Positions 16,943 through 60,956 of a stretch of DNA of 64,000 nucleotides are shown in pieces. The notes below the pieces were generated by a model that had not been told where the DNA came from, searched no databases, and saw only the letters and a program-made list of their open reading frames with translations. Position 1 is the first letter of the stretch; each line of letters starts with the position of its first letter. The stretch is from positions 1 through 64,000 of the IMG/VR virus record IMGVR_UViG_3300044977_000070; one strand, written 5' to 3'. Source of the DNA: a virus. A program made the translations under genes and the position numbers.

Positions 16943-18310
16943 ATGGCAAAGACCATGACGCGCCAAGCAGCACGTACAATCGCGGCTGTCGTGCCTTTCG
17001 TTAAGGCGAAGCTGGCGCAGGACGAAGCGGTTGATTTCACGAAGTTGCTTGCGGGCGTCAAAGCGGAAACGTTTACCGACCAGAAGCCAAAACTCCTGGA
17101 AGGAATCCGTAAGCTCACCAAAGGCAAGTTGGCACAAGACGCCTCTATTGGCGAACTTGCTGAGATGCTCGACCTTCTCGATTCTCATGGCGTCGAGCAG
17201 GACGAGGACGTATCAGAGGCGCAGCACGAAGCCATGATGGCAACGGCTCAAGGAAAAGGAGACCGCAAGATGCGAGGACGACATGCTGACGATCGGCGTC
17301 GTCATGCTGATGACCGAAGGCGTGCAGACGATCGCCGGCATGCCGACGACGAGCACGAGGATCACGAGGAGGTGGATCGGACGTCCCAGGAGTTCCATGG
17401 GGGTGGTGGGGAGGATCGTCGCCGAGGCGCTCGTGACCGTCGCGCCGATGACATGAACCAGGGTGAGATTGAGCGTGAGCACCAGCCCTTCCGCGAGGGC
17501 GAGGATATGGGCGAGCCGGACGATTATGACGATCCGACTGAGTTCACCATGAAGCGTCGGGACGCGGCGGACGAGGAAGAGGAAGAGGAGTTCGAGTCCC
17601 CCGGCGAGAAGTTGGAAGACCTGGGTGCCGAGACGGGCGAGGATGATTTCGAGGCTGGGCAGCCCCATGCCGAGGAGACGCGCAGCAACGAGTACGAGTG
17701 GCGCCGCGGCTCAATGAAGGGGCCCGTCACTGACAAGCGTCGGGGAATGGACAGGCGACGCGGCATGGACAAGCGCTATGCGGACGATCGCCGGCATGCG
17801 GATGACAGGCGCAAGGGCATGGACAAGCGTCGGGCCGCCGACAAGCGTGGGCGGGCCATGGACGAACCCCCTCCGTTCAAGGGACGCCCGAATCCCGGGG
17901 GATCGATGGACAAGCGTCGGGCCATGGATCGCCGGGGCCACGCCCAGGACGCTAGGGAAACGGTAACACGCGTCGAAATGGAGGCCGCCATCCAGGCCGC
18001 GGCAAAGGCCGCCACCGCACGTGAGAGGGCGATACGGGACGCAGAACGTCGGGTCCAGCCGTATATCGGCAACGTCAATATGTCATTCGACAGCGCAAAC
18101 GCTGTTTACGAGCATGCGTTGAAGCTGTTGAAGATTGACACCAAGGGGGTGCACCCCTCTGCCTTCCCGACCCTGCTCAAGTATGCCCAGAAGCCAGGCG
18201 CCAACAACTCCAACCCGCGTCCGGCCATGGCGGCTGACTCCATCTCCCGCAACGGGACGCAATCCTTCTTCAACATGTTCCCCGACGCACGGCGGTTGCG
18301 TATCGGTTAA
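16943..18310 (+). CDS. putative scaffolding protein with Arg/Asp tandem repeats
   Basis: 455 aa with an AAGGAG ribosome-binding site. It lies between the DUF2213-like gene and the capsid genes and is highly charged. Confidence 0.5.
   Translation: MAKTMTRQAARTIAAVVPFVKAKLAQDEAVDFTKLLAGVKAETFTDQKPKLLEGIRKLTKGKLAQDASIGELAEMLDLLDSHGVEQDEDVSEAQHEAMMATAQGKGDRKMRGRHADDRRRHADDRRRADDRRHADDEHEDHEEVDRTSQEFHGGGGEDRRRGARDRRADDMNQGEIEREHQPFREGEDMGEPDDYDDPTEFTMKRRDAADEEEEEEFESPGEKLEDLGAETGEDDFEAGQPHAEETRSNEYEWRRGSMKGPVTDKRRGMDRRRGMDKRYADDRRHADDRRKGMDKRRAADKRGRAMDEPPPFKGRPNPGGSMDKRRAMDRRGHAQDARETVTRVEMEAAIQAAAKAATARERAIRDAERRVQPYIGNVNMSFDSANAVYEHALKLLKIDTKGVHPSAFPTLLKYAQKPGANNSNPRPAMAADSISRNGTQSFFNMFPDARRLRIG
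17273..17941 (+). repeat. in-frame short tandem repeats (HADDRR and MDKRR types)
   Basis: RGRHADDRRRHADDRRRADDRRHADD (about 17273-17350) and KRRGMDRRRGMDKRYADDRRHADDRRKGMDKRRAADKRGRAMD...MDKRRAMDRRG (about 17732-17941). Confidence 0.8.
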
Positions 18311-18383: not shown

Positions 18384-19355
18384 ATGCCGTTTCCAAACCA
18401 AGTTAATGTGCAACCGGGGCCTGCCGTAGAAGGCGACTTCGCGAGCACAAACCCCCGCTATACGGTTGACGCAGGTCCGGGTGGACTCGTCGCCGGTCCG
18501 GCGGGCGTCACGGTTGGTCGTTTTGCGTGGGTGTCGGATCTGACTATCGACACGGACAACGCGCCGGCTACCGCCAATAACTTCGGCACCGGGATGCCCG
18601 CGGGCTTCGTCCACCGCGAGCAGCAGGGCCTCAACACGACCTATCTTGCCGAGGCAAGCATGGTTGTTCCGCAAGGGTTCCCGATCACGCTATTTAATGG
18701 CGGCGACTTCTGGGTGAAGAACGCCGGCACCACACAAGCGCTCGTCGGCATGTATGCCTATGCGAACTATGCAGATGGTCGCGTGACGTTCGGCGTTAGC
18801 AATCAGGCAAATATTGGTCTGAACTCGATAAACACCGCGTCTGTCACCGGTACCATTGCCGCAGGCTCTATCAACTTCTCCGGATTCATTTCGGGGAACG
18901 TCCTCACCGTTACGGGCTCCGTATCGGGCACGATCGTTGTCGGCGGCACGCTCACGGGCGGCACCGGCATGGCGGCCGGCACCCAGATCATTGGGCAGTT
19001 GTCAGGAACGCCGGGAGGTGTGGGCACGTATGCCCTCAATATCCCGGAGCAGACCGTTAACAATGGATCAAACTCCGTTATTATTACGGAGACGTACGGC
19101 GTCTTGAACGTCACAGCGGTGACGGGAACGGTAGGTGTCGGCGACGTCTTGTCGGGAACGGGGATAACCGTAGGCACTACAATCACGGCGTTGGGCACGG
19201 GTTCGGGAGGTACCGGGACGTATATCGTCAATATCACCCAGACCGTGAGTTCCTCCACTTGGACTGTGGCGACCAACATACAAACCAAGTGGATCGCAAT
19301 GTCCGCAGGCAATGCCGGCGAACTTGTGAAAATAAGTAACGCGGTCTATGCGTAA
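18384..19355 (+). CDS. capsid decoration/cement-like protein carrying two copies of a ~60-aa Gly/Thr-rich domain
   Basis: 323 aa immediately upstream of the major capsid gene. The N-terminus is [24 protein letters not shown]. The two inserted domains are at nt 18870-19061 and 19089-19253. Confidence 0.5.
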
Positions 19356-24391: not shown

Positions 24392-24704
24392 CTCAGCACT
24401 CGCTTTTGACAATGGGCAATATGGGAACGTAGACCCGAAGATTCGGGATTGGTTCAAGGGCGTTCGTAGTCCGAACGGTGTTCCATGCTGTGACATTGCC
24501 GATGGGCATTATACAAGTTGGCGTAAGTCGGAAACCGTTGGGTACGAGTTTGATGTGCCAATAGAGGGCGAGTGGGTTCCTGTGCCACCGTCCACTATCG
24601 TCAAGAACGCCCACAATCCCACGGGCGATGCCATTGTTTGGTATGTAAGGCAGACGCCGGGGGGTTGGTATATCCGGTGCTTCGTACTTGGGAGTGGCGC
24701 GTGA
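24354..24704 (+). CDS. secreted hypothetical protein
   Basis: 116 aa. Signal peptide MKKLLTVFFLLSSSALA; contains a CC pair (GVPCCDIADGHY). Confidence 0.5.
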   Translation: MKKLLTVFFLLSSSALAFDNGQYGNVDPKIRDWFKGVRSPNGVPCCDIADGHYTSWRKSETVGYEFDVPIEGEWVPVPPSTIVKNAHNPTGDAIVWYVRQTPGGWYIRCFVLGSGA

Positions 24705-25330
24705 AGTATTTATTGACTGCCGAGCAGCTTATTGGATTTGAGAAGACTATTGCCGATGCTTACAACTCGGGCGTCATTCGTGCGCCGGTGCATTTGTCGG
24801 GCGGCAATGAGGAACAACTTATCAAAATATTTAAGGACGTGGATGAGCAGGATTGGGTGTGCAGTGCATGGCGGTCGCACTATCACTGCCTACTGAAGGG
24901 AGTTCCTACGCAAACCTTTATGGAGGATATTTGGGCAGGAAGGTCGATTACGCTTTGCTATCCCGAGCAACGCGTTATTACGTCCGCGATCGTCGGCGGG
25001 ATCATTCCGATTGCCCTTGGCATTGCACTTGGGATCAAGCGACAAGGCGGCACCGAAAAGGTTTGGTGTTTCGTCGGCGACATGACGGCTGTCGGTGGGG
25101 CTTTTCATGAAGCCCTGAACTACGCGGTTGGTTCTGATCTTCCTATTAAGTTCATTATCGAGGATAATGGAAAATCTGTGGGCACGGATACGAGGGATGC
25201 GTGGGGTCCTGACTCCAAATCGGTTTTGGATTTGTATGATTATGAGTTTCCATATTCGAGTTATATTTATTATTACCAGTATGAATTGCCATGGCCCCAC
25301 GCGGGCGCTGGAAAATGGGTTGAGTTCTGA
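24701..25330 (+). CDS. thiamine-diphosphate enzyme, E1-alpha-like (PP-binding) subunit, short form
   Basis: GTG at 24701 overlaps the upstream stop (GTGA). The ThDP motif is GDMTAVGGAFHEALNYAVGSDLPIKFIIEDNG (GDG-x25-NN type). Confidence 0.62.
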   Translation: MKYLLTAEQLIGFEKTIADAYNSGVIRAPVHLSGGNEEQLIKIFKDVDEQDWVCSAWRSHYHCLLKGVPTQTFMEDIWAGRSITLCYPEQRVITSAIVGGIIPIALGIALGIKRQGGTEKVWCFVGDMTAVGGAFHEALNYAVGSDLPIKFIIEDNGKSVGTDTRDAWGPDSKSVLDLYDYEFPYSSYIYYYQYELPWPHAGAGKWVEF

Positions 25331-25332
25331 AA

Positions 25333-25515
25333 ATGGCAAATCATGTTGCGAAACGTATATGGACTTCTGATGGGCTTTGGGCCTATGAGTATGGAAGTGA
25401 CGGAAGTCTTATGAATATTATCCCGAGGGCCTATGTATCTGAGCCTGCGGATGAGGAAGTGGTTTCTGGCAGAAGTGCCGTCGAAGCCGTGTCAGTTTCA
25501 CAGAATGGCAATTAA
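25333..25515 (+). CDS. small hypothetical protein
   Basis: 60-aa ORF between the two ThDP subunit genes. Confidence 0.35.
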   Translation: MANHVAKRIWTSDGLWAYEYGSDGSLMNIIPRAYVSEPADEEVVSGRSAVEAVSVSQNGN

Positions 25516-26043
25516 ATGTCCGCATATTTCGATCGTCTTTGCGAGGCCATGGAATTGCTGGCGCAGCAGCCGCGCGTCCTGTTCATGGGGCAGGCGGTGG
25601 CATGCCCCGGTACCGGCATGAGTAGGAGTTTCAAGAATGTTCCTCCCGAAAGTTTGTTGGAATTGCCCGTCGCCGAGGACATGCAGATGGGCCTTTCTAT
25701 CGGTTATGCTCTCCAGGGTGGTTTCCCCGTCTCCATTTACCCACGTTTCAATTTTCTCCTGCTCGCAATTAACCAACTCGTCCTCCACCTCGACAAAATC
25801 CCGATTTACAGCAACGGGGGGTACAAGCCCAAGGTCATTATTCGGACGGCTGTTGGGGCGGAGACGCCGCTCTACCCGGGTGCGCAGCATGTAGGGAATT
25901 ATTGCGACCCCTTGCGTCTCATGTTGCAGAAGGTGGAGGTGATCGAGTTGCAGGAGGAAAGTCATATCCTCTCTGCGTACAGGTATGCAATTACGAGAAC
26001 GGATCGTTCTTTTCTTCTGGTCGAGCATGCCAGCAAATATTGA
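25516..26043 (+). CDS. thiamine-diphosphate enzyme, E1-beta/transketolase pyrimidine-binding-like subunit, short form
   Basis: 175 aa. LPVAEDMQMGLSIGYALQGGFPVSIYPRFNFLLLAINQLV parallels the E1-beta block (P-x-x-E-x-x-x-x-G-x-x-x-G-x-A-x-x-G). There is no C-terminal transketolase_C domain. Confidence 0.6.
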   Translation: MSAYFDRLCEAMELLAQQPRVLFMGQAVACPGTGMSRSFKNVPPESLLELPVAEDMQMGLSIGYALQGGFPVSIYPRFNFLLLAINQLVLHLDKIPIYSNGGYKPKVIIRTAVGAETPLYPGAQHVGNYCDPLRLMLQKVEVIELQEESHILSAYRYAITRTDRSFLLVEHASKY

Positions 26044-26051
26044 GGCGGCTA

Positions 26052-27248
26052 ATGGAAAGTTTTGAAATGGCAGCATCCAAGTGGTGGTATCCAACTGGCT
26101 TTGCGGCATGGGGGGACGAGGAACGACACGCGATCAATTGCGTCATGAAGAGCGGCCGTTTCACGTGTGGCGAACGCGTCGCGGCATTCGAGGAGGCCTT
26201 TGCCAGATATCATGGCCGCAAGTACGGGATCATGTGCAACTCGGGTTCGTCTGCGAACCTTCTCATGATTGCGACTTTATTTCATTTGCAGAATAGGCCA
26301 TTGCAGCGCGGTGACGTTGCGCTTGTCCCGGCCATTGCTTGGTCGACCACCTATGCCCCGCTAGTGCAATATGGGTTGCATATTAGTTTGATGGATTGCG
26401 ATGCCACATGGAACGCCAATACATTTTATAGGCCTTGTCGGCTTGTTGTTGGGTGTTCCATTCTTGGCAATCCCGCCGATTTGTCTAATCTTGCTTATCA
26501 TGCCGGTGAATGTGGCGCTTATTTCATTGAGGACAATTGCGAGAGCTTCGACGCACGATTGCCTGCCACTAATGGCGATGTATCGGCCTATGGCGACTTT
26601 GTGGGGGTGTGCGGGACATATGGCGTCATGTCCTCGTTCTCGTTCTTCTACTCGCACCAGATTTCCGCGATCGAGGGCGGCATGGTACTGACGGACGACA
26701 AGGAAATGGCGACGCTGTGTCGAATGCTGCGCGCGCATGGCTGGTCAAGGGATGTAGAACCCCCTGCTCATTTCGACCAGGAATACGACTTCCGCGTCTT
26801 TGGGTACAATGTTCGCCCCCTCGAATTGCACGCGGCAATAGCGCATGTTCAGCTGAGTAAGCAGGTCGAGCATAAGCGTCTTCGTCAGCAGAATATGAAA
26901 CTGTTCCGTGAGCTGACGAGGGGGCTGCCGATCAAGCACCCGACGCCTTATGGCGACATGAATCCATTCTGTCTTAACTTCATAGTGGATCACAATAGGG
27001 ACGGCGTGCAGCTGGATAATAGCAAACGCGCCGATCTTGTCCGCGCCTTGCGTGCCGCCTCGATAGATTGTAGATTGCCGACAGGCGGTTCCTTCCGCAA
27101 GCATAAGTACGGAAGGATTGCGCGACACCAAGAAACGCCCAACGCCGATCGTATCCACGACACAGGTCTTTTTCTAGGAAATGGCGCACTTGATCTCTCC
27201 GAGAGGATTGGTCGGGCGGTAGCCATTATGAAGGACGTTCTTGCATGA
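26052..27248 (+). CDS. DegT/DnrJ/EryC1/StrS-family PLP/PMP enzyme with His at the Schiff-base Lys position (ColD/E1-type sugar 3-dehydratase candidate)
   Basis: ATG at 26052; the ORF is open from 25902. NSGSSANL and SFSFFYSHQISAIEGGMVLTDD: where aminotransferases of this family have Lys, this protein has His (codon CAC at 26655-26657). Confidence 0.65.
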   Translation: MESFEMAASKWWYPTGFAAWGDEERHAINCVMKSGRFTCGERVAAFEEAFARYHGRKYGIMCNSGSSANLLMIATLFHLQNRPLQRGDVALVPAIAWSTTYAPLVQYGLHISLMDCDATWNANTFYRPCRLVVGCSILGNPADLSNLAYHAGECGAYFIEDNCESFDARLPATNGDVSAYGDFVGVCGTYGVMSSFSFFYSHQISAIEGGMVLTDDKEMATLCRMLRAHGWSRDVEPPAHFDQEYDFRVFGYNVRPLELHAAIAHVQLSKQVEHKRLRQQNMKLFRELTRGLPIKHPTPYGDMNPFCLNFIVDHNRDGVQLDNSKRADLVRALRAASIDCRLPTGGSFRKHKYGRIARHQETPNADRIHDTGLFLGNGALDLSERIGRAVAIMKDVLA

Positions 27249-28186
27249 CAACACGAGTTCTTATTACAGGCGGTGCAGGATACATTGGTTCTATTCTTAC
27301 GGAGTTGTTGATTGGTCCTCCCCATGACATTACAGGTTTTGACGTTGTGGTGGTGGACAGTTTTATGTGGAATCAAACAAGTCTCAATCACCTGTCCTGC
27401 AATCTCAACCTTGAAATCGTCAAGGGCGATTGCCGTGATATGCGGCTTATGGGACCATTGCTGAAGCAATGCGATGTGTTCATTCCGCTTGCGGCGCTTG
27501 TCGGTGCGCCTTTGTGCGAGCAGCGTCAAGAGGATGCACAGACGATTAATTGTGAAGCTGTGGACGACGCGGTCAAGCGCTTGAGTCCGGATCAACGCGT
27601 GCTCATCCCGAATACAAACAGCGGTTATGGGACGGTTCCTGTTGGAGAATGCACGGAGGAAACACCGTCCAATCCGTTGAGCGTTTATGGACGAACTAAG
27701 CAGGAAGCGGAAAACTTCGTTTTGCAGAGACGGAATGCCGTCAGCTTCCGTCTCGCGACCGTGTTCGGCATGAGCCCGCGGATGCGCATGGATTTGCTCG
27801 TCAATGACTTTGTATGGCGTGCCATGACGGACGGTTATGTCGTGCTCTATGAACCCGATGCCATGCGCAACTACATCCACATCCGGGACGTCGCACGCGT
27901 TTTCTTGCATGGGATTACGCAGATTCCCGATGGCGCTTATAATGTCGGACTGTCCACTGCCAACATGTCCAAGGTTGGGTTGTGCAAGGAAATACAAAAA
28001 CAGTTCCCATCTTTCGAGGTCAGAACTTCTTCTTTTGGCGTAGACCCTGACAAGCGGGATTACGTCGTATCGAATGCCAAAATTGAGAAGTCAGGCTTCA
28101 TGCCCAAGTTTGGTCTGGGCGAGGGCATTATGGAGTTGCGCAAGGGGTATCAGCAAATGCGGAGGCACCAGTATGGGAACGTATAG
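27245..28186 (+). CDS. NAD(P)-dependent sugar epimerase/reductase (extended SDR)
   Basis: 313 aa. Rossmann motif TGGAGYIGS and catalytic YGRTK (YxxxK). ATGA overlap with the upstream gene. Confidence 0.75.
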   Translation: MTTRVLITGGAGYIGSILTELLIGPPHDITGFDVVVVDSFMWNQTSLNHLSCNLNLEIVKGDCRDMRLMGPLLKQCDVFIPLAALVGAPLCEQRQEDAQTINCEAVDDAVKRLSPDQRVLIPNTNSGYGTVPVGECTEETPSNPLSVYGRTKQEAENFVLQRRNAVSFRLATVFGMSPRMRMDLLVNDFVWRAMTDGYVVLYEPDAMRNYIHIRDVARVFLHGITQIPDGAYNVGLSTANMSKVGLCKEIQKQFPSFEVRTSSFGVDPDKRDYVVSNAKIEKSGFMPKFGLGEGIMELRKGYQQMRRHQYGNV

Positions 28187-44996: not shown

Positions 44997-45047
44997 GCGT
45001 ATAATCCCCCGGGTGGGGCGATTTGTCGCGTATCGCGTGCGGTAGCA

Positions 45048-47926: not shown

Positions 47927-48571
47927 ATGAAAAAAGTTTTACTACTGGGCAGTGCGCTGCTTTTGTTGCTTGCAGCAGGGGCGGCGATTGCAACCAATGG
48001 TACGATCGCTGTGCGGGACGGCACAGCGCAGATTTGTACTACTAACCCCACGCAGTGTGGGGCAAGTCACAACTTTTCTGTGACTATTGATGGTCTAGGT
48101 AATTACAATTGGAACTATGCTATTGTAGACGGAGGAGGGTCCGGGGCTACTGCAACGGTTAAGCAGGCCTCGGCAGGAGCATTACCCACGGATAATGCTC
48201 AGACCGTTCTCTCTCTGCCGAGCCCCGCTTCAACAACTAACTATTCAGCGGTGATACAGGCAGCATTGACATATCAACTCCTAATGCCCGCTGGTTCTCG
48301 TCAATCTATTTACATCAAAAATAATCAAACAACTGGCACCGACGTTTGCTACCTACTTTATGGAAGTAATGTCACTAGTCAGGTGGTTCCCGGAAGTACA
48401 CTAACTTCGAATAACTTGATGATTGGTGGAAATATGATTTCGGCCGGAGGGGCGTCAGATATACTCAATCCTGGGCAACCCTATTTGCGTACTTACCCCC
48501 TCGTACCGAATGACCCGATTTATGTGGCCTGCTCAACTATGGGGGACACGATTTATGCTTCTGCTCAATAA
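47927..48571 (+). CDS. secreted hypothetical protein
   Basis: The ATG at 47927 gives MKKVLLLGSALLLLLAAGAAIA. 214 aa. Confidence 0.5.
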   Translation: MKKVLLLGSALLLLLAAGAAIATNGTIAVRDGTAQICTTNPTQCGASHNFSVTIDGLGNYNWNYAIVDGGGSGATATVKQASAGALPTDNAQTVLSLPSPASTTNYSAVIQAALTYQLLMPAGSRQSIYIKNNQTTGTDVCYLLYGSNVTSQVVPGSTLTSNNLMIGGNMISAGGASDILNPGQPYLRTYPLVPNDPIYVACSTMGDTIYASAQ

Positions 48572-48584
48572 GGGATTATTTGTC

Positions 48585-51437
48585 ATGTCAGCGCTGGTCC
48601 GAGTACTCCTTTTGCTATGTGTAATGGGGTCAATTGCATTGTCGCAGTCGCCCCCCGCAGAGGTTCCAGGTCCCAGTGCGGCAAAGCTCGCGAATCCTGT
48701 TTATGGCGCAGGTATTGGTTTACTTTATACGTGCGTCACCAATTATTATGTCAATGCCAGTACCGGCAACGATTCCAACCCAGGCACCCAGACGCAGCCT
48801 TGGTTGACTATTCAACATGCCGATACCGTCCCGAGAGCTCCCGGGGATTGCATAAATGTTGCCCCCGGCACTTATACGTGGACTCATTCATTCATTCCGC
48901 AGAATGGTGGCAACCTCTCGGCGCCCACAGGTTATGTTACCTATCGCTGCGAGACGCTAGACCAGTGTTTTATTCTGTTTGATGGAACCTTTATGGGGTC
49001 CAATGGTCAAGCAGTTATCGGCTTTGTCAAACCATACTTCATATTCGACGGATTCGACGTCGATGGCGGCGAGCAGTTCATGTATGGCGGGATCGCCACT
49101 GCATGTTTTGATGCGGGTCTTAACGACCTTGGCGGCACCGGCCATCACATCTGGATTCTAAACAACAATGTGCACGGATGCGGCATTGGCTGCATCGGTC
49201 TGAGTGACAGCGAATATTTCTTCATGATCCATAATAACGCGTCGGATTGCGCGTTTACGGATCAGTTTGAAGGCTCTGGCATAGGTCTGGTTGCCCTGAA
49301 GCGTCTCGGCGATAACCTCAATCCATATCCACCGTATACGCCGACTGCAGCCGATCTCGCTTTCGCTCCGTTTACCAATATGATGTCCTGGAACCGTGTA
49401 TTTAACAATGGTTGCACGGTGTGCCTGGGCATCCTCAACACGTTCACGACGACAGCAAACACCCACAGCTCGACGACGATAGACAACATTGCCAGTCTTG
49501 GTACCTCGGCGAGCTTTACCGGCTCTATCCCCTCGGGGATGCAGATTCTGACAGTGACCGGGATCACGGGCACCATCTCGCCAGGCGACCAGATTTTCGG
49601 CGCAGGAACATTCCAGACCACGTTTATATATCCGTATGGGACAGGGGGAACCACCGGTACGGGCGGGAATGGCACTTATTTCATTAGCGTTGTCTATCCT
49701 ACCGGATTTAGCGGCGCGCTGACATCGACTACACTTGGGGAAGGCGTTCTCATTACCGGACCCGGCGTCCAGCCGTTCACGTATATCAGCTCCATAACCG
49801 GCAATACAGCCACGGTGACGCGTCCGACGCTCACGACACAGTCTGGGGCGAGTCTGAACTTCATCGCCCCTGGTGCGGGCCATACGGACGGCAATGGCAT
49901 CATCAACGACACATGGTGCGGAACGCCATGCGGAGGTACCGGAACCGATCCCTACAACTATCCCGACCATCAGACGTTAGTCAGCTTCAACGATGTGCAG
50001 TTCAACGGCGGCCGTGGGATGCACAACTTTGGCGTCAATTACGTTACGACAGCCAACAATTCATTTTATCACGATGGCCTCGATCTGTTTCTGGCTGGCG
50101 CTATAGGCGAGTTGAGCGAGGCGGGTGGGAATAACAATAGTTGGTACAGCAACGCGGCCTTCGCCACTCAGAACCTCGTGACAGATTGCAATTTCTCCGG
50201 TGTTCCGTGCAATTTCTGCGTTGTGGCTGGTGATGGCAGAGGCGCTGACGTAGGAACCAAATGGTTCAATAATGTTGTCTTCGGACCGGCTGTAGGCGGC
50301 ACGTGCGTCGCGCTATTCAATAATGATGCAACGTACTGGGTTCCTACTAACAATAAAGGCGATATTGATCCAAAGTTTATTGATGAAACCAGTGATACAG
50401 TTGGGAATTTACAACTCCAATTCCCCGCCTCACCTGCAATAAACTATGCCAATTCCCATGCATTCTACTTTTTGCCAAAGGGAACGAGTGATTCCGGAGC
50501 ATATCAGACTGGCGGTATACGAATTGTAAATTATGTAGGTTTGTCGCCAGATTTCACGAGCGATGTCGGGTACTATACGACGCCGCCAATTCCCACGCCT
50601 CTTAGTTGTGCGCAGGCGACGGCGTTTTTGATAAGGGCTGCGACGGTCGCCTCAATTGATCGGGTTCATCACGACGCCTACTCAGATCTTATTTGCGGAA
50701 TGGTGAATGATGGCACATGGTGCGGATCGTATTATGATGTCTTCTATATTTTTGCGACGGTGAACTCCGCATTAGCTCAGTTCAATCTTTGTTCGGATAC
50801 TAATTATAATGCGATCCTTAATGGGAATCCGGCCTTCACGCCGGATAGAGGCTTTGCCGGAGTTAATCAAAGTACCACTATTTACATTGATCCTCAATTT
50901 AATCCAAGTACGGTGGTTGGTGCGAATTATTCTCTGAACTCTGCGCATGTTTCCGTATGGAGTTTAACTAATACAATTGATTCCAATCCCGCATATGCAG
51001 TAGGCACATCTCCCCAACTAGGTTTCTTTAGTGGGATAACGAATCTGATGCCGAGCGAACCGTCCGGCACCGGATTTATCAACCCTTATGCGAATGTGAA
51101 CAATACGAACTTTGGTTTTTTCGGCCCTTCACAGCCTTTGTCCAGCTCGGTCGGGTATTATGTGGCAAATTTATCCGGCACAACGATCACCGAGTACAAG
51201 AACGGGGCGAGCTTATTTAGTTACACTAATATGCCTACTCCCGTGCTATGTAACATATTCATTCTTGCTAATAATAGTTGTAGTGCTGGTGGGCCTTCTG
51301 CAGAAGGCGGGTCATCTCTCACGATAGCGCACGCAAGCATAGGTTCCGATTTTTCTGCCGTTGTTGGTTCTGTTTGTCATAGGTTGGACGCTTATCTTGT
51401 AGCGGTTGGCAATACCAGTCAAATAGGGGCATGTTAG
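48585..51437 (+). CDS. Sec-signal right-handed beta-helix protein, paralog 3, with an internal insertion and a C-terminal extra domain
   Basis: The ATG at 48585 gives MSALVRVLLLLCVMGSIALSQ. YYVNASTGNDSNPGTQTQPWLTIQHA...CINVAPGTY and HTDGNGIINDT blocks. There is an insertion of about 150 aa (nt 49431-49877) relative to paralog 2. Confidence 0.6.
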   Translation: MSALVRVLLLLCVMGSIALSQSPPAEVPGPSAAKLANPVYGAGIGLLYTCVTNYYVNASTGNDSNPGTQTQPWLTIQHADTVPRAPGDCINVAPGTYTWTHSFIPQNGGNLSAPTGYVTYRCETLDQCFILFDGTFMGSNGQAVIGFVKPYFIFDGFDVDGGEQFMYGGIATACFDAGLNDLGGTGHHIWILNNNVHGCGIGCIGLSDSEYFFMIHNNASDCAFTDQFEGSGIGLVALKRLGDNLNPYPPYTPTAADLAFAPFTNMMSWNRVFNNGCTVCLGILNTFTTTANTHSSTTIDNIASLGTSASFTGSIPSGMQILTVTGITGTISPGDQIFGAGTFQTTFIYPYGTGGTTGTGGNGTYFISVVYPTGFSGALTSTTLGEGVLITGPGVQPFTYISSITGNTATVTRPTLTTQSGASLNFIAPGAGHTDGNGIINDTWCGTPCGGTGTDPYNYPDHQTLVSFNDVQFNGGRGMHNFGVNYVTTANNSFYHDGLDLFLAGAIGELSEAGGNNNSWYSNAAFATQNLVTDCNFSGVPCNFCVVAGDGRGADVGTKWFNNVVFGPAVGGTCVALFNNDATYWVPTNNKGDIDPKFIDETSDTVGNLQLQFPASPAINYANSHAFYFLPKGTSDSGAYQTGGIRIVNYVGLSPDFTSDVGYYTTPPIPTPLSCAQATAFLIRAATVASIDRVHHDAYSDLICGMVNDGTWCGSYYDVFYIFATVNSALAQFNLCSDTNYNAILNGNPAFTPDRGFAGVNQSTTIYIDPQFNPSTVVGANYSLNSAHVSVWSLTNTIDSNPAYAVGTSPQLGFFSGITNLMPSEPSGTGFINPYANVNNTNFGFFGPSQPLSSSVGYYVANLSGTTITEYKNGASLFSYTNMPTPVLCNIFILANNSCSAGGPSAEGGSSLTIAHASIGSDFSAVVGSVCHRLDAYLVAVGNTSQIGAC

Positions 51438-52165
51438 TTTTGCCTCATCTTTCAGTAACCCAATCCAATATCCAGACGGCGCTCATTTCGTTCCTTGCCA
51501 GTGCTATGCCGTCAGGCATGGAGATCGTCGAGGGGCAGGACAATCGCGTTCCCGAGCCGGTTGGGCAGGATTTCATTGTCTTCACAATCATGCGTCGCGA
51601 TCGTCTATCGACGAACGTGGACGCCTTTGCGGACTGCGCATTTACGGCCTCGATCTCCGGAAACATTATGGATGTCACCGCCGTCCAGATAGGAACGGTC
51701 GCCGCGGGCAATCTCGTATTTGGTTCTGGGATTGCGGTAGGCACGAGGGTTTCTGGGACGTTGACAGGAACGGGCGGTATCGGGACCTATCTTGTCAGCG
51801 TTTCGCAGACGATCGGTTCCGAGCAAATGGCGGCGGGATCCTTTACGGCATTGCAGGCTGTGAATGCCATGATCCAGATCGACGTCCATGGGCCGAATAG
51901 TTCGGATAATGCGCAGATAATAACTACCTTATTTCGAGATGACTACGCCTATCAAATAATGCGTCAATCTGGATTCGACGTTGCGCCGCTTCACGCGGAC
52001 GACCCAAAGCAGATTCCATTTATCAATGCCGAGCAGCAATATGAGTATCGTTGGGTGATAGAAGCGCATATGCAGGCGAACCAGATAGTGCTGGGAATCC
52101 CGCAGCAATTCTTCGACGTTGTGGACCTAAACGTGGAAAGCGTGACGGTCGAGTTCCCAAATTAA
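51431..52165 (+). CDS. putative tail terminator/neck protein with the inserted Gly/Thr-rich domain
   Basis: 244 aa immediately upstream of the sheath gene. The N-terminal IQTALISFL...VEGQDNRVPEP pattern is typical of tail-terminator-like proteins. The insert is at nt 51641-51820. Confidence 0.45.
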   Translation: MLVLPHLSVTQSNIQTALISFLASAMPSGMEIVEGQDNRVPEPVGQDFIVFTIMRRDRLSTNVDAFADCAFTASISGNIMDVTAVQIGTVAAGNLVFGSGIAVGTRVSGTLTGTGGIGTYLVSVSQTIGSEQMAAGSFTALQAVNAMIQIDVHGPNSSDNAQIITTLFRDDYAYQIMRQSGFDVAPLHADDPKQIPFINAEQQYEYRWVIEAHMQANQIVLGIPQQFFDVVDLNVESVTVEFPN

Positions 52166-52177: not shown

Positions 52178-53899
52178 ATGACAATTCCGGCTTCACAACT
52201 TGTCCAAGTAAATCCGAGCGTCCTGTCTGCGGGCGGCAACGCGCTTAATATCACAGGACTCATGCTGACGCAGAACACGCGCGTTCCGATCGGCAGCATT
52301 GTCAACTACCCCACGGCACTTGCCGTATCGGAGGAGTTGGGGGCGAGTTCCGTTGACGCGGCCGCAGCCGCCATTTACTTCGCTGGTAATGACGGGAAGA
52401 CACAGACGCCCGGCTCGCTGCTCGTCGCCCAGTTCCCGACTGCTGCTGTCGCCGCCTATTTGCAATCGTCCAGCCTCTCGGGCGTATCGATTGCAACGTT
52501 GCAAAGCTTCAACGGGGCGTTGAATGTCACGATTGACGGGTATCCACGATCGGCGTCGATTAATCTCTCCGGGGCCAATACGTTTTCCCAGGCGGCCGCG
52601 ACGATCCAGTCCGCCTTGAACGCCTCCCTCCCCGTCGAGGCCACGGCCACGGCGTCCATAAACAACGGTACGTTGACGGTAACGGGGACCCTGACAGGGC
52701 TGCTCGCTGTCGGGCAAACCGTTACAGGATCGAACACCCCAGCTGGGACTATTGTCCTAGCGCAGCTCACCGGTGCCTTAAATGGCACCGGCACGTACAG
52801 CGTCACGGCAACGGGGACGATCGTCGTCTCGCAGACTCTCACGTTCACGGCAACGGCGTTGTCCGTCACCTTTGACAGCGTAACCAACGCTATCGTAATT
52901 CAATCGGGGATTACGGGGAATCCAAGCACGGCGGCCTATGCGTCCGGGACGCTCGCAACTGATTTGTTACTGACGCAGGCGCTAGGCGCTGTCTTGTCTC
53001 AAGGAACGGTTGCGGCGACGCCGGCGGCGTTCATGGCAAATATCATTCGCCAGAATCAGAACTGGGCGACGTTCTTCCTCAACTTTAATCCAGATGCCTC
53101 GGGCAATTCGACGAAGCTTGCTTTTGCTGCATGGGTTGCGACGACGAATAGTCGTTACATTTATCTTGCAGGCGACAACGACGTGACGCCGACCTTGTCT
53201 ACGAATGCCCCAACCAGTCTTGCACAGTTGGTGGAGACGGCAAACTACAGTGGCGTGTGTGCGATCTATGATCCGAGCTTCTATCCGATAGCGGCCTTTG
53301 TTGCAGGAACCGCCGCCTCTATTGATTTCAATGAGCCCAATGGGCGGATAACGTTCGCCTACAAGTCACAAGGCGGGTTGGTGGCGAGCGTGACGGACCT
53401 TGTTGTCGCCGACAATCTGTTGGCGAATGGCTACAACTTCTATGGGGCCTATGCTACGGCAACCACCCAGTTCGTCTTCTTCCAGAATGGCAGCGTCAGC
53501 GGCCCATATCTGTTCCTCGACTCCCTGGTCAATGCCATATGGTTGACGGCGCAGTTGCAACAGGCATTGGTGGAGCTCCTGGCTGCTATCAATTCGATTC
53601 CGTACAACTCGGTTGGCTTTGGATTGATTGAGGCGGCCTTGGGGAGCACGATCCAGCAAGGCCTAACGTTTGGCGCATTTGCCGCGGGCGTTACTCTGTC
53701 ATCCACGCAAATTGCGGAGGTCAATAGCCAGGCAGGTGCGAACGTCGCCCCGACGCTACAGCAACGCGGCTGGTATCTGCAAGTCCTTGACCCTGGTCCT
53801 GCCGTGCGACAAGTACGAGGCTCGCCGATCTGCACGTTCTGGTACGTGGATGGCGAAAGCGTGCAACTAATCAACTTGTCCGATATCAAGTTGAACTAG
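52178..53899 (+). CDS. tail sheath protein (DUF3383-like)
   Basis: 573 aa. The N-terminus (IPASQLVQVNPSVLSAGG) and gene order (sheath, tube, chaperone, tape measure) fit. Contains the Gly/Thr-rich domain at nt 52649-52843. Confidence 0.6.
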   Translation: MTIPASQLVQVNPSVLSAGGNALNITGLMLTQNTRVPIGSIVNYPTALAVSEELGASSVDAAAAAIYFAGNDGKTQTPGSLLVAQFPTAAVAAYLQSSSLSGVSIATLQSFNGALNVTIDGYPRSASINLSGANTFSQAAATIQSALNASLPVEATATASINNGTLTVTGTLTGLLAVGQTVTGSNTPAGTIVLAQLTGALNGTGTYSVTATGTIVVSQTLTFTATALSVTFDSVTNAIVIQSGITGNPSTAAYASGTLATDLLLTQALGAVLSQGTVAATPAAFMANIIRQNQNWATFFLNFNPDASGNSTKLAFAAWVATTNSRYIYLAGDNDVTPTLSTNAPTSLAQLVETANYSGVCAIYDPSFYPIAAFVAGTAASIDFNEPNGRITFAYKSQGGLVASVTDLVVADNLLANGYNFYGAYATATTQFVFFQNGSVSGPYLFLDSLVNAIWLTAQLQQALVELLAAINSIPYNSVGFGLIEAALGSTIQQGLTFGAFAAGVTLSSTQIAEVNSQAGANVAPTLQQRGWYLQVLDPGPAVRQVRGSPICTFWYVDGESVQLINLSDIKLN

Positions 53900-59510: not shown

Positions 59511-60956
59511 ATGACCAATGTCCCTACTATCACCTTAGGTCCAAATGGGCTTCAGTCCCCGCCTGAGTCGGCGATCCTCGCTGGCACTGAGGCCGATATC
59601 AACGCCGCGTTCGGCGGCGGTCTCAATATGCAGCAGACGACGCCGCAGGGACAACTCGCTGTCAGCGAGGCAGCGATTATCGGTAACGTCTATAGCCAAT
59701 TCATTGCCCTTGCAAATATGTTCGACCCCGCCTTTGCGCAGGGCAGGTTCCAGGACGCGTTGGCGCGCATTTACTTCCTGCAACGTCAGCCGGCGTTGCC
59801 GACTACTTTGACTATTCAATGCAACGGATTGCCGGGCGTCACGATCCCCGTTAACGCACAAGTACAGGATCAGGCGGGCAATACGTACGTCAATACGACG
59901 ACGGGAAGCATCTCGAATTCTGGTAACGTTGTCCTGACATTTGCCGCCCTTGTGGCAGGCCCTACCGCGGTTCCGTCCACCGTCACGATCTTCCAGGCAA
60001 TCCCAGGCTGGGATTCCGCAACCGTCCTCTCCGGCATCCTAGGGCAGAATGTCGAGACCCGTTCCGCCTTCGAAACCAGGCGGCAGGAAGCCGTCGCTGC
60101 AAATTCGGTAGGCCCTAATGCGGCGATACGTGGCGCTGTATTGCAACTTCCTGGGGTTATAGATTGCTATGTAACCGATAACTCGACTAATGGAACGGCG
60201 ACCATTGGCGGCGTCGTTCTTCCTCCAAACTCACTTTATGTCGCTGTCGCCCAGGGGACGGCGTCTAATTCCACTGTCGCCCAGGCGATATGGTCGAGGA
60301 AGATTCCCGGCACCTCGTATTATCCAGGCAACGTCACGACCACTGTTCTTGACCAAAGTTCGGGATATTCGCCGCCCTTTCCATCCTATCAAGTCACGTA
60401 TCAAATTCCAAACCCATTGCCTATATTTTTTAATATCACTTTTGTTGCCTCCACTCTCATACCGTCAAACGCGCAGGCTTTGGTCGCAGCAGCCCTAATC
60501 AATGCGTTCGCCGGAGGCGACGGCGGACCCGCCGCCAAGATAGGGAGTTTGTTGCTGGCGTCCCGCTATGCGGAACCAATAATAGCCTTGGGGACGTGGG
60601 CACAGATTCGGACGCTGTTTATCTCCTCGCCCAATACAGCAGGGGCAACTATCGTTGGTTCCATTAGTGGGACCACGTTGACGGTAACATCGGTATCGGC
60701 GGGCACCATTGCTGTCGGTGAGCTCGTTGCCGGCAGCGGGCTAGGTGGGACAGGAACGGTTCTGCCCGGCACCTCTATTCTATCGCAGTTGTCGGGTGCG
60801 GCGGGAGGCACCGGAACGTATGGCGTCAGCAACTCGCAGACTACTCTGTCCGGAACCCTGACTACTACATCCACCCTCAATTCAAGTCAAGTTCAGTGCA
60901 ATATCAATCAAATCCCGCAGTTGTTTGCGGCTAATGTGTTTGTAAGTACATCATGA
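59511..60956 (+). CDS. baseplate J-like protein with the inserted Gly/Thr-rich domain
   Basis: 481 aa. FAQGRFQDALARIYFLQRQPA...TIPVNAQVQDQAGNTY fits Baseplate_J. The insert is at nt 60642-60851. Confidence 0.65.
   Translation: MTNVPTITLGPNGLQSPPESAILAGTEADINAAFGGGLNMQQTTPQGQLAVSEAAIIGNVYSQFIALANMFDPAFAQGRFQDALARIYFLQRQPALPTTLTIQCNGLPGVTIPVNAQVQDQAGNTYVNTTTGSISNSGNVVLTFAALVAGPTAVPSTVTIFQAIPGWDSATVLSGILGQNVETRSAFETRRQEAVAANSVGPNAAIRGAVLQLPGVIDCYVTDNSTNGTATIGGVVLPPNSLYVAVAQGTASNSTVAQAIWSRKIPGTSYYPGNVTTTVLDQSSGYSPPFPSYQVTYQIPNPLPIFFNITFVASTLIPSNAQALVAAALINAFAGGDGGPAAKIGSLLLASRYAEPIIALGTWAQIRTLFISSPNTAGATIVGSISGTTLTVTSVSAGTIAVGELVAGSGLGGTGTVLPGTSILSQLSGAAGGTGTYGVSNSQTTLSGTLTTTSTLNSSQVQCNINQIPQLFAANVFVSTS

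What the first reader, a model, noticed from the sequence alone, without database searches (positions are those of the whole stretch)
18870..19253. One ~60-aa Gly/Thr-rich domain recurs in at least five different virion-region proteins
**Seen:** six copies share the pattern (I/F)xGSIsG..LTVT.V.sGTI.VG..(V/L).G.G(I)..GT.I...L(S/T)G..GG.GTY.(V/L)(S/N)..QT.

The copies are:
- Decoration-like protein, two copies (nt 18870-19061, 19089-19253): ...[58 protein letters not shown] and ...[48 protein letters not shown].
- Tail-terminator-like protein (51641-51820): SISGNIMDVTAVQIGTVAAGNLVFGSGIAVGTRVSGTLTGTGGIGTYLVSVSQTI.
- Sheath (52649-52843): NNGTLTVTGTLTGLLAVGQTVTGSNTPAGTIVLAQLTGALNGTGTYSVTATGT.
- Baseplate J (60642-60851): SISGTTLTVTSVSAGTIAVGELVAGSGLGGTGTVLPGTSILSQLSGAAGGTGTYGVSNSQT.
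- Beta-helix paralog 3 (49512-49709).

The host proteins are otherwise unrelated, so this behaves as a mobile insert module.

**Established:** Ig-like domains are scattered through phage structural proteins in a comparable way.

**Inference:** the domain is surface-exposed. It could be an adhesion or carbohydrate-binding module, or the acceptor module for the phage-encoded glycosylation machinery. It is Thr/Ser-rich, and all its carriers lie in the same operon as the glycosyltransferases.
Basis: partly seen in the sequence, partly recalled or inferred. Interest (0 to 1): 0.75.

Follow-up and report, generated by a model that had tools for sequence, protein, structure and literature searches.

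The report
Uncharged Gly/Thr beta-domain inserted in virion proteins
A real, previously uncurated ~60-residue all-beta domain that almost lacks charged residues is inserted six times into five proteins of this uncultured phage; it belongs to a very large family found in phage surface proteins, so it is a new example of the known habit of phages to decorate their particles with small accessory domains.

Summary
Six in-frame copies sit at the stated coordinates. They are homologous rather than merely similar in composition: leave-one-out HMM scores are 25-60 bits, against at most 23 bits for shuffles.

- **Fold:** AlphaFold models it confidently as a compact, roughly six-stranded beta domain (pLDDT 91).
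- **Known families:** there is no match in Pfam, NCBIfam or PDB sequences. The only solved fold neighbour is the capsid decoration protein gp7 of Arthrobacter phage Bridgette, and that match is weak.
- **Family size:** it occurs in 6,392 protein clusters, often in tandem (up to 28 copies). Hosts include sheaths, cement proteins, baseplate wedges, fibres, pectate-lyase-like and RHS proteins.
- **Insertions:** in all five carriers it is an insertion. Burkholderia phage PE067 has all four virion homologues (39-49% identical) without it, and a window paralog of the fifth carrier lacks it too.
- **Age:** copies are orthologous by position across relatives, so the inserts are old rather than recently mobile. 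Copy number at the sheath site varies from 1 to 3.
- **Surface chemistry:** outward-facing strand positions are conserved Ser/Thr, and charged residues make up 2.8%.

The most likely role is an exposed accessory module for weak multivalent adhesion to polysaccharides, analogous to Ig-like domains. This is inferred.

The glycan-acceptor idea is weakened. Mesorhizobium and Bosea prophages, and 80 of 80 IMG/VR loci, carry the domain without the window's sugar genes nearby.

The parts
18384..19355 (+). Capsid cement / decoration protein (323 aa). Its beta-tulip-type core carries two inserted copies of the domain ahead of a conserved C-terminal strand.
   Evidence: PF23982 1.2e-20 and PF22758 3.4e-15 over residues 3-167; phrog_2122 3e-43. 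The full-length AF2 model has pLDDT 91.1 and pTM 0.87. Foldseek matches Pam3, T1, FCWL1, XM1 and Pa193 decoration proteins of 142-211 aa. The PE067 homologue is 158 aa and lacks the insert. All 120 of the 120 best-matching homologues listed by the search (55-82% identical) have two copies.
18870..19061 (+). Domain copy 1 in the cement protein.
   Evidence: HMM i-E 1.2e-23; leave-one-out score 43.4 bits against a shuffle maximum of 11.0. Closest to the cement copy 1 of relatives, at 75%, 64% and 59% identity.
19089..19253 (+). Domain copy 2 in the cement protein (the 'ETYG' subtype, with a shorter N-terminal strand).
   Evidence: HMM i-E 7.7e-18; leave-one-out score 39.2 bits against a shuffle maximum of 23.3. 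Closest to the cement copy 2 of the Bosea prophage (74%) and of the 110-kb relative (60%).
48510..51437 (+). 975-aa protein of unknown fold with a Sec-type signal-peptide-like N-terminus (probable start near 48585). It is a paralog of ORF 39572-41779 and carries one domain copy.
   Evidence: No Pfam, PHROG or PDB-sequence match. 37% identical over 311 aa to ORF 39572, with residues about 327-458 as an insertion relative to that paralog. The N-terminal hydrophobic leader is visible.
49512..49709 (+). Domain copy in the 975-aa exported protein; the most divergent copy.
   Evidence: HMM i-E 5.8e-19; leave-one-out score 24.8 bits against a shuffle maximum of 12.8.
51431..52165 (+). Neck / tail terminator protein (244 aa) with one inserted copy.
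   Evidence: PF23961 6e-22 in two stretches, of which the reported one (residues 139-233, profile 56-147) lies downstream of the domain; phrog_1876 likewise. The PE067 homologue (181 aa, 47% identical) lacks residues about 70-135.
51641..51820 (+). Domain copy in the terminator.
   Evidence: HMM i-E 1.8e-25; leave-one-out score 60.4 bits against a shuffle maximum of 11.5. AF2 model of this copy: pLDDT 91.4, pTM 0.76, all beta.
52178..53899 (+). Contractile tail sheath (573 aa, DUF3383 / E217 gp31 type) with one inserted copy.
   Evidence: PF11863 4.5e-110 in two stretches; phrog_205. The PE067 sheath (49% identical) lacks residues about 149-229. Of 120 close homologues, 74 have one copy, 42 two and 4 three at the same site. 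None of 53 more distant metagenomic sheaths has an insert.
52649..52843 (+). Domain copy in the sheath.
   Evidence: HMM i-E 3.3e-21; leave-one-out score 39.0 bits against a shuffle maximum of 13.1. 68% identical to the sheath copy of the 110-kb relative.
59511..60956 (+). Baseplate wedge protein (Baseplate_J, 481 aa) with one copy inserted before the C-terminal segment.
   Evidence: PF04865 2e-14; phrog_6 4.8e-48. The PE067 homologue (412 aa, 45% identical) lacks it. Metagenomic fragments that end in the same 'NINQ.P....AD..V' tail carry the domain.
60642..60851 (+). Domain copy in Baseplate_J.
   Evidence: HMM i-E 4.2e-20; leave-one-out score 42.9 bits against a shuffle maximum of 7.5. 66% identical to the Baseplate_J copy of the 110-kb relative.

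Best explanation
**What it is (shown).**
- The repeat is a genuine, autonomous protein domain of about 58-62 residues, modelled as a compact all-beta unit of roughly six strands.
- It belongs to a very large family that has no curated description.
- In this uncultured E217-like myophage (the window is part of a 110-kb contig), it is inserted into loops of four virion proteins: capsid cement (two copies), tail terminator, sheath and baseplate wedge J. It is also inserted in one signal-peptide-bearing protein.
- The host folds do not need it, because homologues or paralogs that lack it exist for all five carriers.
- The inserts are old and positionally conserved in a clade of phages and prophages of Rhizobiales, Burkholderiales and other bacteria. 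Tandem copy number varies at a fixed site.
- Inward-facing strand positions are hydrophobic and turns are Gly. Outward-facing strand positions are conserved Ser/Thr, and the domain is almost uncharged.

**How it most likely works (inferred).**
- The domains project from the outside of the capsid and tail. By analogy with E217 stoichiometry there would be several hundred cement subunits, each with two copies, plus about 200 sheath subunits.
- They give the particle a dense, hydroxyl-rich, uncharged surface.
- That surface makes weak multivalent contacts with polysaccharide such as host EPS, LPS or capsule, or environmental matrix. This would raise the encounter and adsorption rate, in the way proposed for Ig-like domains such as T4 Hoc.
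- It does not act as a specific receptor-binding site or as part of the assembly lattice.
For: **Real domain**
- Leave-one-out HMM scores against shuffles.
- Only six hits in the six-frame scan of the window.
- AF2 pLDDT 91.4 for the isolated domain; pLDDT 91.1 and pTM 0.87 for the whole cement protein.

**Uncurated**
- No Pfam, NCBIfam or PDB-sequence match for any copy or for the profile.
- No Pfam model covers the repeats in 10 plus 63 representative carriers.

**Large family**
- 6,392 clusters at E<=1e-3 and 1,457 at E<=1e-10; up to 28 copies per protein.
- At least 443 IMG/VR stretches.
- 51 bacterial genome loci across many phyla, 14 of them with E217-like prophage genes nearby.

**Virion-surface and extracellular contexts**
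- BFVD hits at TM about 0.9 in capsid, gp10-like, tip-attachment J, Stf fibre, pectate-lyase and collagen-like proteins.
- PHROG assignments of carriers: cement, baseplate wedge, connector-like and fibres.
- Partner Pfam families include Pect-lyase, Collar, RHS, fn3, PKD and Lectin_C.

**Insertions**
- PE067 alignments for the four virion proteins; window paralog for the fifth carrier.
- Solved cement proteins matching the carrier's core are only 142-211 aa.
- E217 gp24 is a 211-residue beta-tulip that forms a surface protrusion at three-fold axes (PMC10329688).

**Peripheral, not part of the lattice**
- One, two or three copies at the same sheath site in 74, 42 and 4 of 120 homologues.
- One to three copies in other carriers.

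**Surface chemistry**
- G+T+S make up 51% of residues. DEKR make up 2.8%, against 11.7% in the rest of the same proteins.
- Outward positions are 80-94% Ser/Thr across 698 distinct copies.

**Fold neighbour**
- The only solved neighbour is a capsid decoration protein, Bridgette gp7: probability 0.98, TMq 0.67.
Against: - No binding experiment exists, and no binding site was identified.
- There are no conserved exposed aromatic residues of the kind usual in carbohydrate-binding modules. The single invariant Tyr may be buried.
- Model coordinates could not be inspected, so 'outward-facing' rests on strand periodicity. Exposure on the assembled particle rests on analogy.
- The constant two copies in all 120 cement homologues, and the high pTM of the cement model, fit a fixed structural turret as well as an adhesin.
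- The composition and conservation statistics come from copies selected with an HMM built from the six window copies. This favours similar compositions.
- The Foldseek match to Bridgette gp7 has E = 0.35.
Confidence: 0.5

Rival explanations
1. **Glycan-acceptor module.** The conserved surface Ser/Thr ladders would be O-glycosylated in the cytoplasm by the phage's own glycosyltransferase, using an unusual sugar made by the neighbouring biosynthetic genes. The virion would thereby gain a glycan shield.
For: - The window carries a sugar-nucleotide-type block in the same co-directional gene array, between the head and tail genes. It comprises:
  - a TPP E1-like enzyme;
  - a DegT/RfbH-like aminotransferase;
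  - an NAD epimerase/dehydratase;
  - a B12 radical-SAM enzyme;
  - TylF-like methyltransferases;
  - a Glyco_trans_1_2-like protein.
- The block is conserved in the 100-110 kb relatives.
- Surface Ser/Thr are conserved far more than surface residues usually are.
- Virion glycosylation by phage-encoded enzymes is established in mycobacteriophages (Freeman 2023, as summarised in PMC12619734).
Against: - The same domain-bearing cement, terminator, sheath and Baseplate_J occur in a Mesorhizobium prophage with no sugar genes in the structural region. The two-copy cement occurs in a Bosea prophage, also without them.
- None of 80 IMG/VR domain loci has a homologue of the window's sugar genes within about 8 kb.
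- The domain also sits in a signal-peptide protein and in RHS and other extracellular proteins.
- In mycobacteriophages the glycans are at the C-termini of capsid and tail tube subunits, not on a folded insert domain.
- The glycosyltransferase assignment is weak: E = 5.6e-9 to one Pfam family and no NCBIfam match.
- The sugar block could instead serve host-surface or DNA modification.
Confidence: 0.15
2. **Structural reinforcement.** The domains would make specific inter-subunit contacts that stabilise the capsid (turrets at three-fold axes) and the extended sheath, acting as extra cement.
For: - Two copies are strictly conserved in all 120 cement homologues.
- The cement model has a confident fixed inter-domain geometry, pTM 0.87.
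- The carrier is itself a cement protein.
- The only fold neighbour binds capsids as dimers around pentons.
Against: - Copy number varies from 1 to 3 at the same sheath site among close relatives, and from 1 to 3 in other carriers.
- PE067 and 53 metagenomic relatives build the same machine without any copy in the sheath.
- The domain occurs in fibres, tailspike-like enzymes, RHS proteins and arrays of up to 28 copies, where no lattice exists.
- An uncharged Ser/Thr surface offers little specificity for protein-protein interfaces.
Confidence: 0.2
3. **Non-stick or ordered-water coat.** The uncharged, hydroxyl-lined surface would reduce non-productive adsorption to charged particles such as clay or humics, or to decoys. 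Alternatively its TxT-type ladders would bind ice or ordered water, as in ice-binding adhesins.
For: - DEKR content is 2.8%, and T-x-T ladders sit on the strands.
- The family is abundant in soil, rhizosphere and freshwater metagenomes and in prophages.
- One copy gives a sub-threshold match to PF20597, an ice-binding-like adhesive domain: 17.4 bits against a cut-off of 23.8.
Against: - Only one of six copies gives that match, and it is below threshold.
- There is no cold-habitat signal.
- Nothing distinguishes this reading from generic polysaccharide adhesion.
Confidence: 0.1
4. **Artefact.** The similarity would be only Gly/Thr compositional bias in low-complexity linkers.
For: SEG masks four of the six copies completely in BLAST. 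G+T+S make up 51% of the residues.
Against: - Leave-one-out scores lie far above composition-preserving shuffles.
- Conservation is position-specific: G19, G44, G47, G50 and Y52 are at 94-99%.
- AF2 models a confident fold.
- Thousands of homologues have full-length matches.
- Other Gly/Ser/Thr-rich ORFs in the window give no hit.
Confidence: 0.02

Closest known systems
Ig-like, FN3 and BACON-type accessory domains on phage virion proteins (e.g. T4 Hoc; Fraser et al. 2006 from my own knowledge; Hoc and mucus in PMC9271167)
   Same: - Small all-beta modules added to otherwise unrelated structural proteins (capsid decoration, sheath or tube, baseplate, fibres).
- Dispensable for the host fold.
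- Variable copy number.
- Proposed weak carbohydrate adhesion.
   Different: - Shorter: about 60 residues against 80-100.
- No Pfam Ig, FN3 or PKD match.
- Foldseek similarity to antibody Ig domains is negligible: TM about 0.3, probability <=0.04.
- Extremely low charge and conserved Ser/Thr surfaces.
- Mostly inserted into loops rather than appended at an end.
Arthrobacter phage Bridgette gp7 capsid decoration protein (PDB 8ECI; bioRxiv 10.1101/2022.09.09.507160)
   Same: It is the only solved structure with a similar fold: Foldseek probability 0.98, TMq 0.67, 63 aligned columns. It also sits on the outside of a capsid.
   Different: - 17% identity and E = 0.35, and the PDB sequence searches with the domain profile and the cement protein returned no hits at all.
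- gp7 is a free-standing 124-aa protein that binds as dimers around pentons, not an insert.
- Homology is unproven.
Beta-tulip cement / decoration proteins (E217 gp24, Pam3 gp6, XM1 gp53, Pa193; PF22758 / PF23982)
   Same: The carrier at 18384-19355 is a member: Pfam matches above threshold and Foldseek hits. These proteins form trimeric protrusions at three-fold axes (PMC10329688).
   Different: The solved members are 142-211 aa and lack the two inserted domains. The domain itself lies outside both Pfam profiles.
Mycobacteriophage virion glycosylation (Freeman et al. 2023, as summarised in PMC12619734)
   Same: Phage-encoded sugar-related and glycosyltransferase-like genes lie next to structural genes, and several virion proteins could be modified at once.
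   Different: - There the glycans are at the C-termini of capsid and tail tube subunits, not on a folded repeat.
- Here no modification is shown.
- The domain is widespread in phages that lack such genes nearby.
N-terminal beta-barrel of F1-ATPase alpha/beta subunits
   Same: A small six-stranded beta unit; it is the next group of Foldseek hits.
   Different: TMq 0.3-0.5, probability <=0.12, E>=2. This is not evidence of relatedness.

Membership tests
Ig-like / FN3 / PKD phage accessory domains | Match to an Ig-superfamily, Big, FN3 or PKD profile. | tested here: not met
   hmmscan against Pfam at E<=10 for all six copies gave no such family.
Ig-like / FN3 / PKD phage accessory domains | Seven- to nine-stranded Greek-key beta-sandwich fold. 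| tested here: not met
   The model has about six strands in 60 residues. Foldseek to antibody domains gives TMq about 0.3 and probability <=0.04.
Ig-like / FN3 / PKD phage accessory domains | Behaviour: promiscuous addition to unrelated virion proteins, dispensable for the host fold. | tested here: met
Phage cement protein (PF22758 / PF23982), for the carrier at 18384-19355 | Profile match above the gathering threshold. | tested here: met
   74.3 and 56.9 bits against a cut-off of 27.
Phage cement protein (PF22758 / PF23982), for the carrier at 18384-19355 | Fold similarity to solved cement proteins. | tested here: met
   Foldseek probability 1.00 to Pam3, T1, FCWL1 and XM1 chains, with TM normalised by target of 0.53-0.63. 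This covers the core only, not the inserts.
Bridgette gp7-like decoration fold | Significant structural or sequence similarity. | tested here: inconclusive
   Probability 0.98 and TMq 0.67, but E = 0.35 and 17% identity. No hit with the sequence profile.
Carbohydrate-binding modules | Match to a CBM family profile. | tested here: not met
   No CBM family found in the Pfam scan.
Carbohydrate-binding modules | Conserved exposed aromatic platform and demonstrated sugar binding. | not testable with these tools
   Only one conserved aromatic residue, Y52 at 98%. Its exposure could not be inspected, and there is no binding assay.
Ice-binding-like adhesive domain (PF20597) | Profile match above the gathering threshold. 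| tested here: not met
   17.4 bits against 23.8, in one of six copies.
Protein O-glycosylation acceptor of a phage-encoded system | Co-occurrence of the domain with glycosyltransferase or sugar genes across genomes. | tested here: not met
   Absent within the fetched structural regions (10 kb or less either side of the anchor gene) of the Mesorhizobium and Bosea prophages, and from 80 of 80 IMG/VR loci within about 8 kb. Present only in the 100-110 kb relatives.
Protein O-glycosylation acceptor of a phage-encoded system | Glycan attached to the domain. | not testable with these tools
   Requires mass spectrometry of virions.

The most novel reading that the evidence does not exclude
In the 100-110 kb phages that carry the sugar-modification block, the domain would be the dedicated acceptor scaffold of a virion glycosylation system. 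More than a thousand Ser/Thr-laddered modules on capsid, neck, sheath and baseplate would be O-glycosylated with an unusual phage-made sugar, coating the whole particle in glycan. This would be the first folded, modular 'glycan display' domain described in a phage. The domain-only prophages would then either use host enzymes or represent the unglycosylated ancestral state.
Probability: 0.12. Interest if true: 0.8.

Novelty: new variant of a known kind. Interest (0 to 1): 0.55.

Why it matters
- **Annotation gap.** A domain present in thousands of protein clusters from phages, prophages and large extracellular proteins has no Pfam, NCBIfam or PDB entry. Carriers in public genomes are labelled only by their core, for example 'DUF3383 family protein' or 'structural cement protein Gp24'. 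Defining the family would improve the annotation of phage structural modules and of many proteins with no assigned function.
- **Biology.** One phage displaying the same module on the capsid, neck, sheath and baseplate at once suggests that the chemistry of the whole particle surface is under selection, not only the receptor-binding tips. This bears on how phages of soil, rhizosphere and freshwater bacteria move through and stick to polysaccharide matrices.
- **Practical use.** The insertion sites tolerate 60-200 extra residues, which makes them candidate display sites in E217-type phages.
- **Glycosylation.** The nearly charge-free, Ser/Thr-laddered surface is unusual for a soluble domain. 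It makes the glycosylation question directly testable by mass spectrometry.

Tried and rejected
- **Curated libraries.** Pfam and NCBIfam scans of the isolated copies at E<=10 gave only sub-threshold, inconsistent hits: pAdhesive_15, choice_anch_A, Cytochrom_B_N_2 and PsbX. I rejected these.
- **PDB sequence searches.** Searches with the domain profile, the whole cement protein and the 975-aa protein gave nothing.
- **tblastn against cultured phages (INPHARED).** Domain copies gave no usable hit. A local test showed that SEG masks four of the six copies completely and that scores are borderline for a 2.3-Gb database. These nulls say nothing about cultured phages.
- **Profile-based locus search.** The search for related loci with the six-copy alignment failed because no stretch was conserved enough. 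I used a consensus peptide instead.
- **Exact-sequence look-up.** The window's own cement protein was not on record.
- **Alignments to the Bosea prophage.** Terminator and sheath alignments were too divergent (25-26% identity) to place the insert. I replaced them with Burkholderia phage PE067.
- **Literature.** A search for the GGTGTY-type motif returned only degenerate PCR primers. The Freeman 2023 paper is not held.
- **F1-ATPase barrel.** I considered this similarity and rejected it as insignificant.
- **'Beta-helix' label.** It could not be confirmed for the 975-aa carrier.
- **Recent intragenomic spread.** Rejected, because copies group by position across genomes.
Full report

Yes. They lie in five ORFs. 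Four carriers are identified with confidence:

- a capsid cement / minor capsid protein (PF23982 at 1e-20, PF22758 at 3e-15, phrog_2122);
- a neck/tail terminator (PF23961 at 6e-22);
- a DUF3383 (E217 gp31-type) sheath (4.5e-110);
- a Baseplate_J wedge protein (2e-14; phrog_6 at 5e-48).

The fifth carrier is 975 aa and matches nothing in Pfam, PHROGs or PDB sequences. Its N-terminus looks like a Sec signal peptide, and it is a paralog of ORF 39572-41779. Its 'beta-helix' and 'virion' labels are therefore unverified.

The copies are 34-52% identical, with 11 invariant columns. Leave-one-out HMMs score the omitted copy at 24.8-60.4 bits. The best of 2,000 composition-preserving shuffles reaches 7.5-23.3 bits. 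A six-frame scan of all 64 kb finds only these six copies. Other Gly/Ser/Thr-rich ORFs, such as the fibre gene at 61622, do not score. All-against-all BLASTP links the carriers only through the domain. Compositional bias alone is excluded.

**2. What is the domain?**

AlphaFold2, run on an alignment of the six copies plus 33 metagenomic homologues, gives a confident all-beta model for the terminator copy: pLDDT 91.4, pTM 0.76. In the full-length cement model (120-sequence alignment, pLDDT 91.1, pTM 0.87) each copy shows about six strands.

No Pfam, NCBIfam or PDB-sequence family matches any copy or the profile. Foldseek against the PDB finds one plausible neighbour, the free-standing capsid decoration protein gp7 of Arthrobacter phage Bridgette (8ECI): probability 0.98, TMq 0.67, E = 0.35, 17% identity. 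According to the depositors it binds as dimers around the pentons (bioRxiv 10.1101/2022.09.09.507160). The next hits, F1-ATPase N-terminal barrels, are not significant.

Foldseek against predicted viral structures (BFVD) returns near-identical folds, with TM about 0.9 and 40-50% identity. They occur inside very different proteins of uncultured tailed phages:

- P22 gp10-like proteins;
- an HK97 major capsid protein;
- tip-attachment protein J;
- a lambda Stf-like fibre;
- a pectate-lyase protein;
- collagen-like proteins of a giant virus.

**3. How big is the family, and where does it live?**

- A profile search of 1.84 billion cluster representatives finds 6,392 proteins at E<=1e-3 and 1,457 at E<=1e-10. 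Many have tandem arrays, up to 28 matched stretches in one 3,743-aa protein.
- Among 63 representatives, most have no Pfam domain at all and none has a Pfam model over the repeats. The partner families are extracellular or virion-surface types: pectate-lyase-like (4), DUF3383 sheath, cement, tail Collar, RHS, collagen, fn3, PKD, EGF, C-type lectin and the T7 fibre N-terminus.
- IMG/VR holds at least 443 confirmed stretches. In 80 loci I found 138 carrier ORFs:
  - a recurrent gene pair, phrog_12985 with one or two copies followed by phrog_578 ('head closure Hc3') with two;
  - baseplate wedges with three copies;
  - cement proteins;
  - fibres.
- In bacterial genomes the domain appears across Alpha-, Beta- and Gammaproteobacteria, Bacteroidota, Planctomycetota, Acidobacteriota, CPR and others. 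Of 51 loci, 14 have E217-like prophage genes nearby.
- PHROGs contains the domain only as an internal segment of two whole-protein families, phrog_21413 and phrog_38233.

**4. Are the copies insertions, and are they mobile?**

Burkholderia phage PE067 has homologues of all four virion carriers at 39-49% identity, and none has the domain.

| Carrier | Window | PE067 homologue | Evidence |
|---|---|---|---|
| Sheath | 573 aa | lacks residues about 149-229 | |
| Terminator | 244 aa | lacks residues about 70-135 | |
| Baseplate_J | 481 aa | 412 aa | |
| Cement | 323 aa | 158 aa | |

- In the cement protein and Baseplate_J, a conserved C-terminal segment follows the insert. The domain is therefore internal there too.
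- In the 975-aa protein, residues about 327-458 are an insertion relative to its window paralog.
- The solved cement proteins that match the carrier's core are 142-211 aa.
- None of 53 metagenomic sheath relatives at 36-45% identity has the sheath insert. One of them has a copy in the adjacent terminator gene.
- All of the 120 closest sheath homologues carry the domain at the same site: 74 have one copy, 42 two and 4 three. All 120 cement homologues carry two.
- Copies from the window, a 110-kb relative, a Bosea prophage and a Mesorhizobium prophage group by position. Cement copy 1 is 59-75% identical across genomes, cement copy 2 is 52-74%, the sheath copy 68% and the Baseplate_J copy 66%. 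Within the window, copies are only 34-52% identical.

The inserts therefore predate the divergence of these phages. They are a stable trait of a clade, with local tandem expansion, and not something that spread recently in this genome.

One hint of cassette transfer remains. The two sheath copies of the Mesorhizobium prophage resemble cement copies 1 and 2 respectively.

**5. Sequence anatomy**

Across 698 distinct near-full-length copies:

- inward strand positions are aliphatic;
- turns are Gly (G19, G44, G47 and G50 at 94-99%);
- one Tyr is invariant (98%);
- outward strand positions are 80-94% Ser/Thr.

G+T+S make up 51% of residues. Asp, Glu, Lys and Arg together make up 2.8%, against 11.7% in the rest of the same proteins. 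Conserved surface hydroxyls with almost no charge are unusual for a soluble domain.

One caveat applies. The set was collected with an HMM built from the window copies, which favours similar compositions.

**6. Context, and the glycosylation idea**

About 28 kb lie between the head-completion genes and the terminator. The block encodes:

- a TPP E1-like enzyme;
- a DegT/RfbH-like aminotransferase;
- an NAD epimerase/dehydratase;
- a B12 radical-SAM enzyme;
- TylF-like methyltransferases;
- a weak Glyco_trans_1_2 match;
- a TPR protein;
- several large unknown proteins, four ORFs with signal peptides.

The block is shared with relatives of 100-110 kb.

The domain does not depend on it, however:

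- A Mesorhizobium prophage has cement x2, terminator x1, sheath x2 and Baseplate_J x1 with no sugar genes in its structural region.
- A Bosea prophage has the two-copy cement directly followed by head and tail genes.
- None of 80 IMG/VR loci has a homologue of the window's sugar genes within about 8 kb.

In the one established case of virion glycosylation, the glycans sit at the C-termini of capsid and tube subunits (summary in PMC12619734).

The acceptor hypothesis is therefore not the general function of the domain. It stays open for this lineage, at roughly 0.12-0.15.

**7. Most likely mechanism**

*Shown:* an autonomous, uncurated beta domain, inserted in loops of virion proteins. The host folds can do without it. 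The inserts are old, and tandem copy number varies.

*Inferred:* the domains project from the particle surface. Three lines support this:

- E217 gp24 forms protrusions at three-fold axes (PMC10329688).
- Sheath insertion domains are peripheral in myophages (my own knowledge).
- A copy number of 1 to 3 at one sheath site is hard to reconcile with a lattice contact.

With E217-like stoichiometry, there would be several hundred cement subunits with two copies each, plus about 200 sheath subunits. That puts more than a thousand copies on each virion.

The best-supported function is an Ig-like-style accessory module. It would give the particle a hydroxyl-rich, uncharged surface for weak multivalent contacts with polysaccharide. 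Its companions elsewhere fit this reading: tailspike-like lyases, fibres, RHS and lectin-type proteins.

The rivals are structural reinforcement (0.2), glycan acceptor (0.15), a non-stick or ordered-water coat (0.1) and artefact (0.02, refuted).

**8. Novelty and score**

The behaviour, a small promiscuous beta domain on phage structural proteins, is known. The family itself, its fold neighbourhood, its nearly charge-free Ser/Thr-laddered surface and its simultaneous presence on the capsid, neck, sheath and baseplate are not described in any library or paper I could search.

I rate it a new variant of a known kind, with interest 0.55.

Noticed in passing
window 24572-30095 and 41943-46853: A sugar-nucleotide-type modification block sits between the head and tail modules. 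It comprises a TPP E1-like enzyme, a DegT/RfbH-like aminotransferase, an NAD epimerase/dehydratase, a B12 radical-SAM enzyme, Methyltransf_24/TylF, and a weak Glyco_trans_1_2 match. The block is conserved in the 100-110 kb relatives and absent from the smaller prophage relatives. Its target is unknown; it could be the virion, the host surface or DNA.
   Followed up: partly
window 30758-32464, 39572-41779, 47816-48571, 48510-51437: Four ORFs in the late gene array begin with classic Sec-type signal peptides, which is unusual for tailed-phage structural regions. Two of them (39572 and 48510) are paralogs, 37% identical over 311 aa. None of the three scanned without a family hit is explained: 30758, 39572 and 48510 have no Pfam match, and 47816 also had none.
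   Followed up: partly
window 16943-18310: A scaffold-like ORF upstream of the cement gene contains long, highly charged low-complexity repeats such as RRHADDRR and DKRR. The ORF at the same position in relatives matches Pa193_gp24.
   Followed up: no
L140 10511-10870 (Mesorhizobium sp. WSM4898 prophage) compared with window 18870-19253: Tandem pairs come in two subtypes. The second sheath copy of the Mesorhizobium prophage is closest to cement copy 2 (62%), and the first to cement copy 1 (52%). This suggests that a two-domain cassette moved between the cement and sheath genes as a unit.
   Followed up: partly
IMG/VR loci L005-L084 (e.g. L007 6643-7599 and 7602-9461): A recurrent adjacent gene pair occurs in many uncultured phages. 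The first gene is phrog_12985 (unknown function) with one or two copies at residue about 80. The second is phrog_578 ('head closure Hc3') with two copies at residues about 133 and 204. By phmmer these proteins are unrelated to the window's carriers.
   Followed up: partly
P0036 (3,743 aa); L157 (Saccharibacteria MAG contig, 2.8 kb): Extreme tandem arrays of the domain: 28 matched stretches in one giant protein, and 9 copies on a 2.8-kb CPR contig. Whether these proteins are cellular surface proteins or phage fibres was not determined.
   Followed up: no
L001 4151-7321 (110-kb relative of the window): The related 110-kb phage encodes DpdA (7-deazaguanine DNA modification), a NUDIX protein and a Methyltransf_24 protein just upstream of its scaffold gene. 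This suggests DNA hypermodification in this phage group. The equivalent window region was not examined.
   Followed up: no
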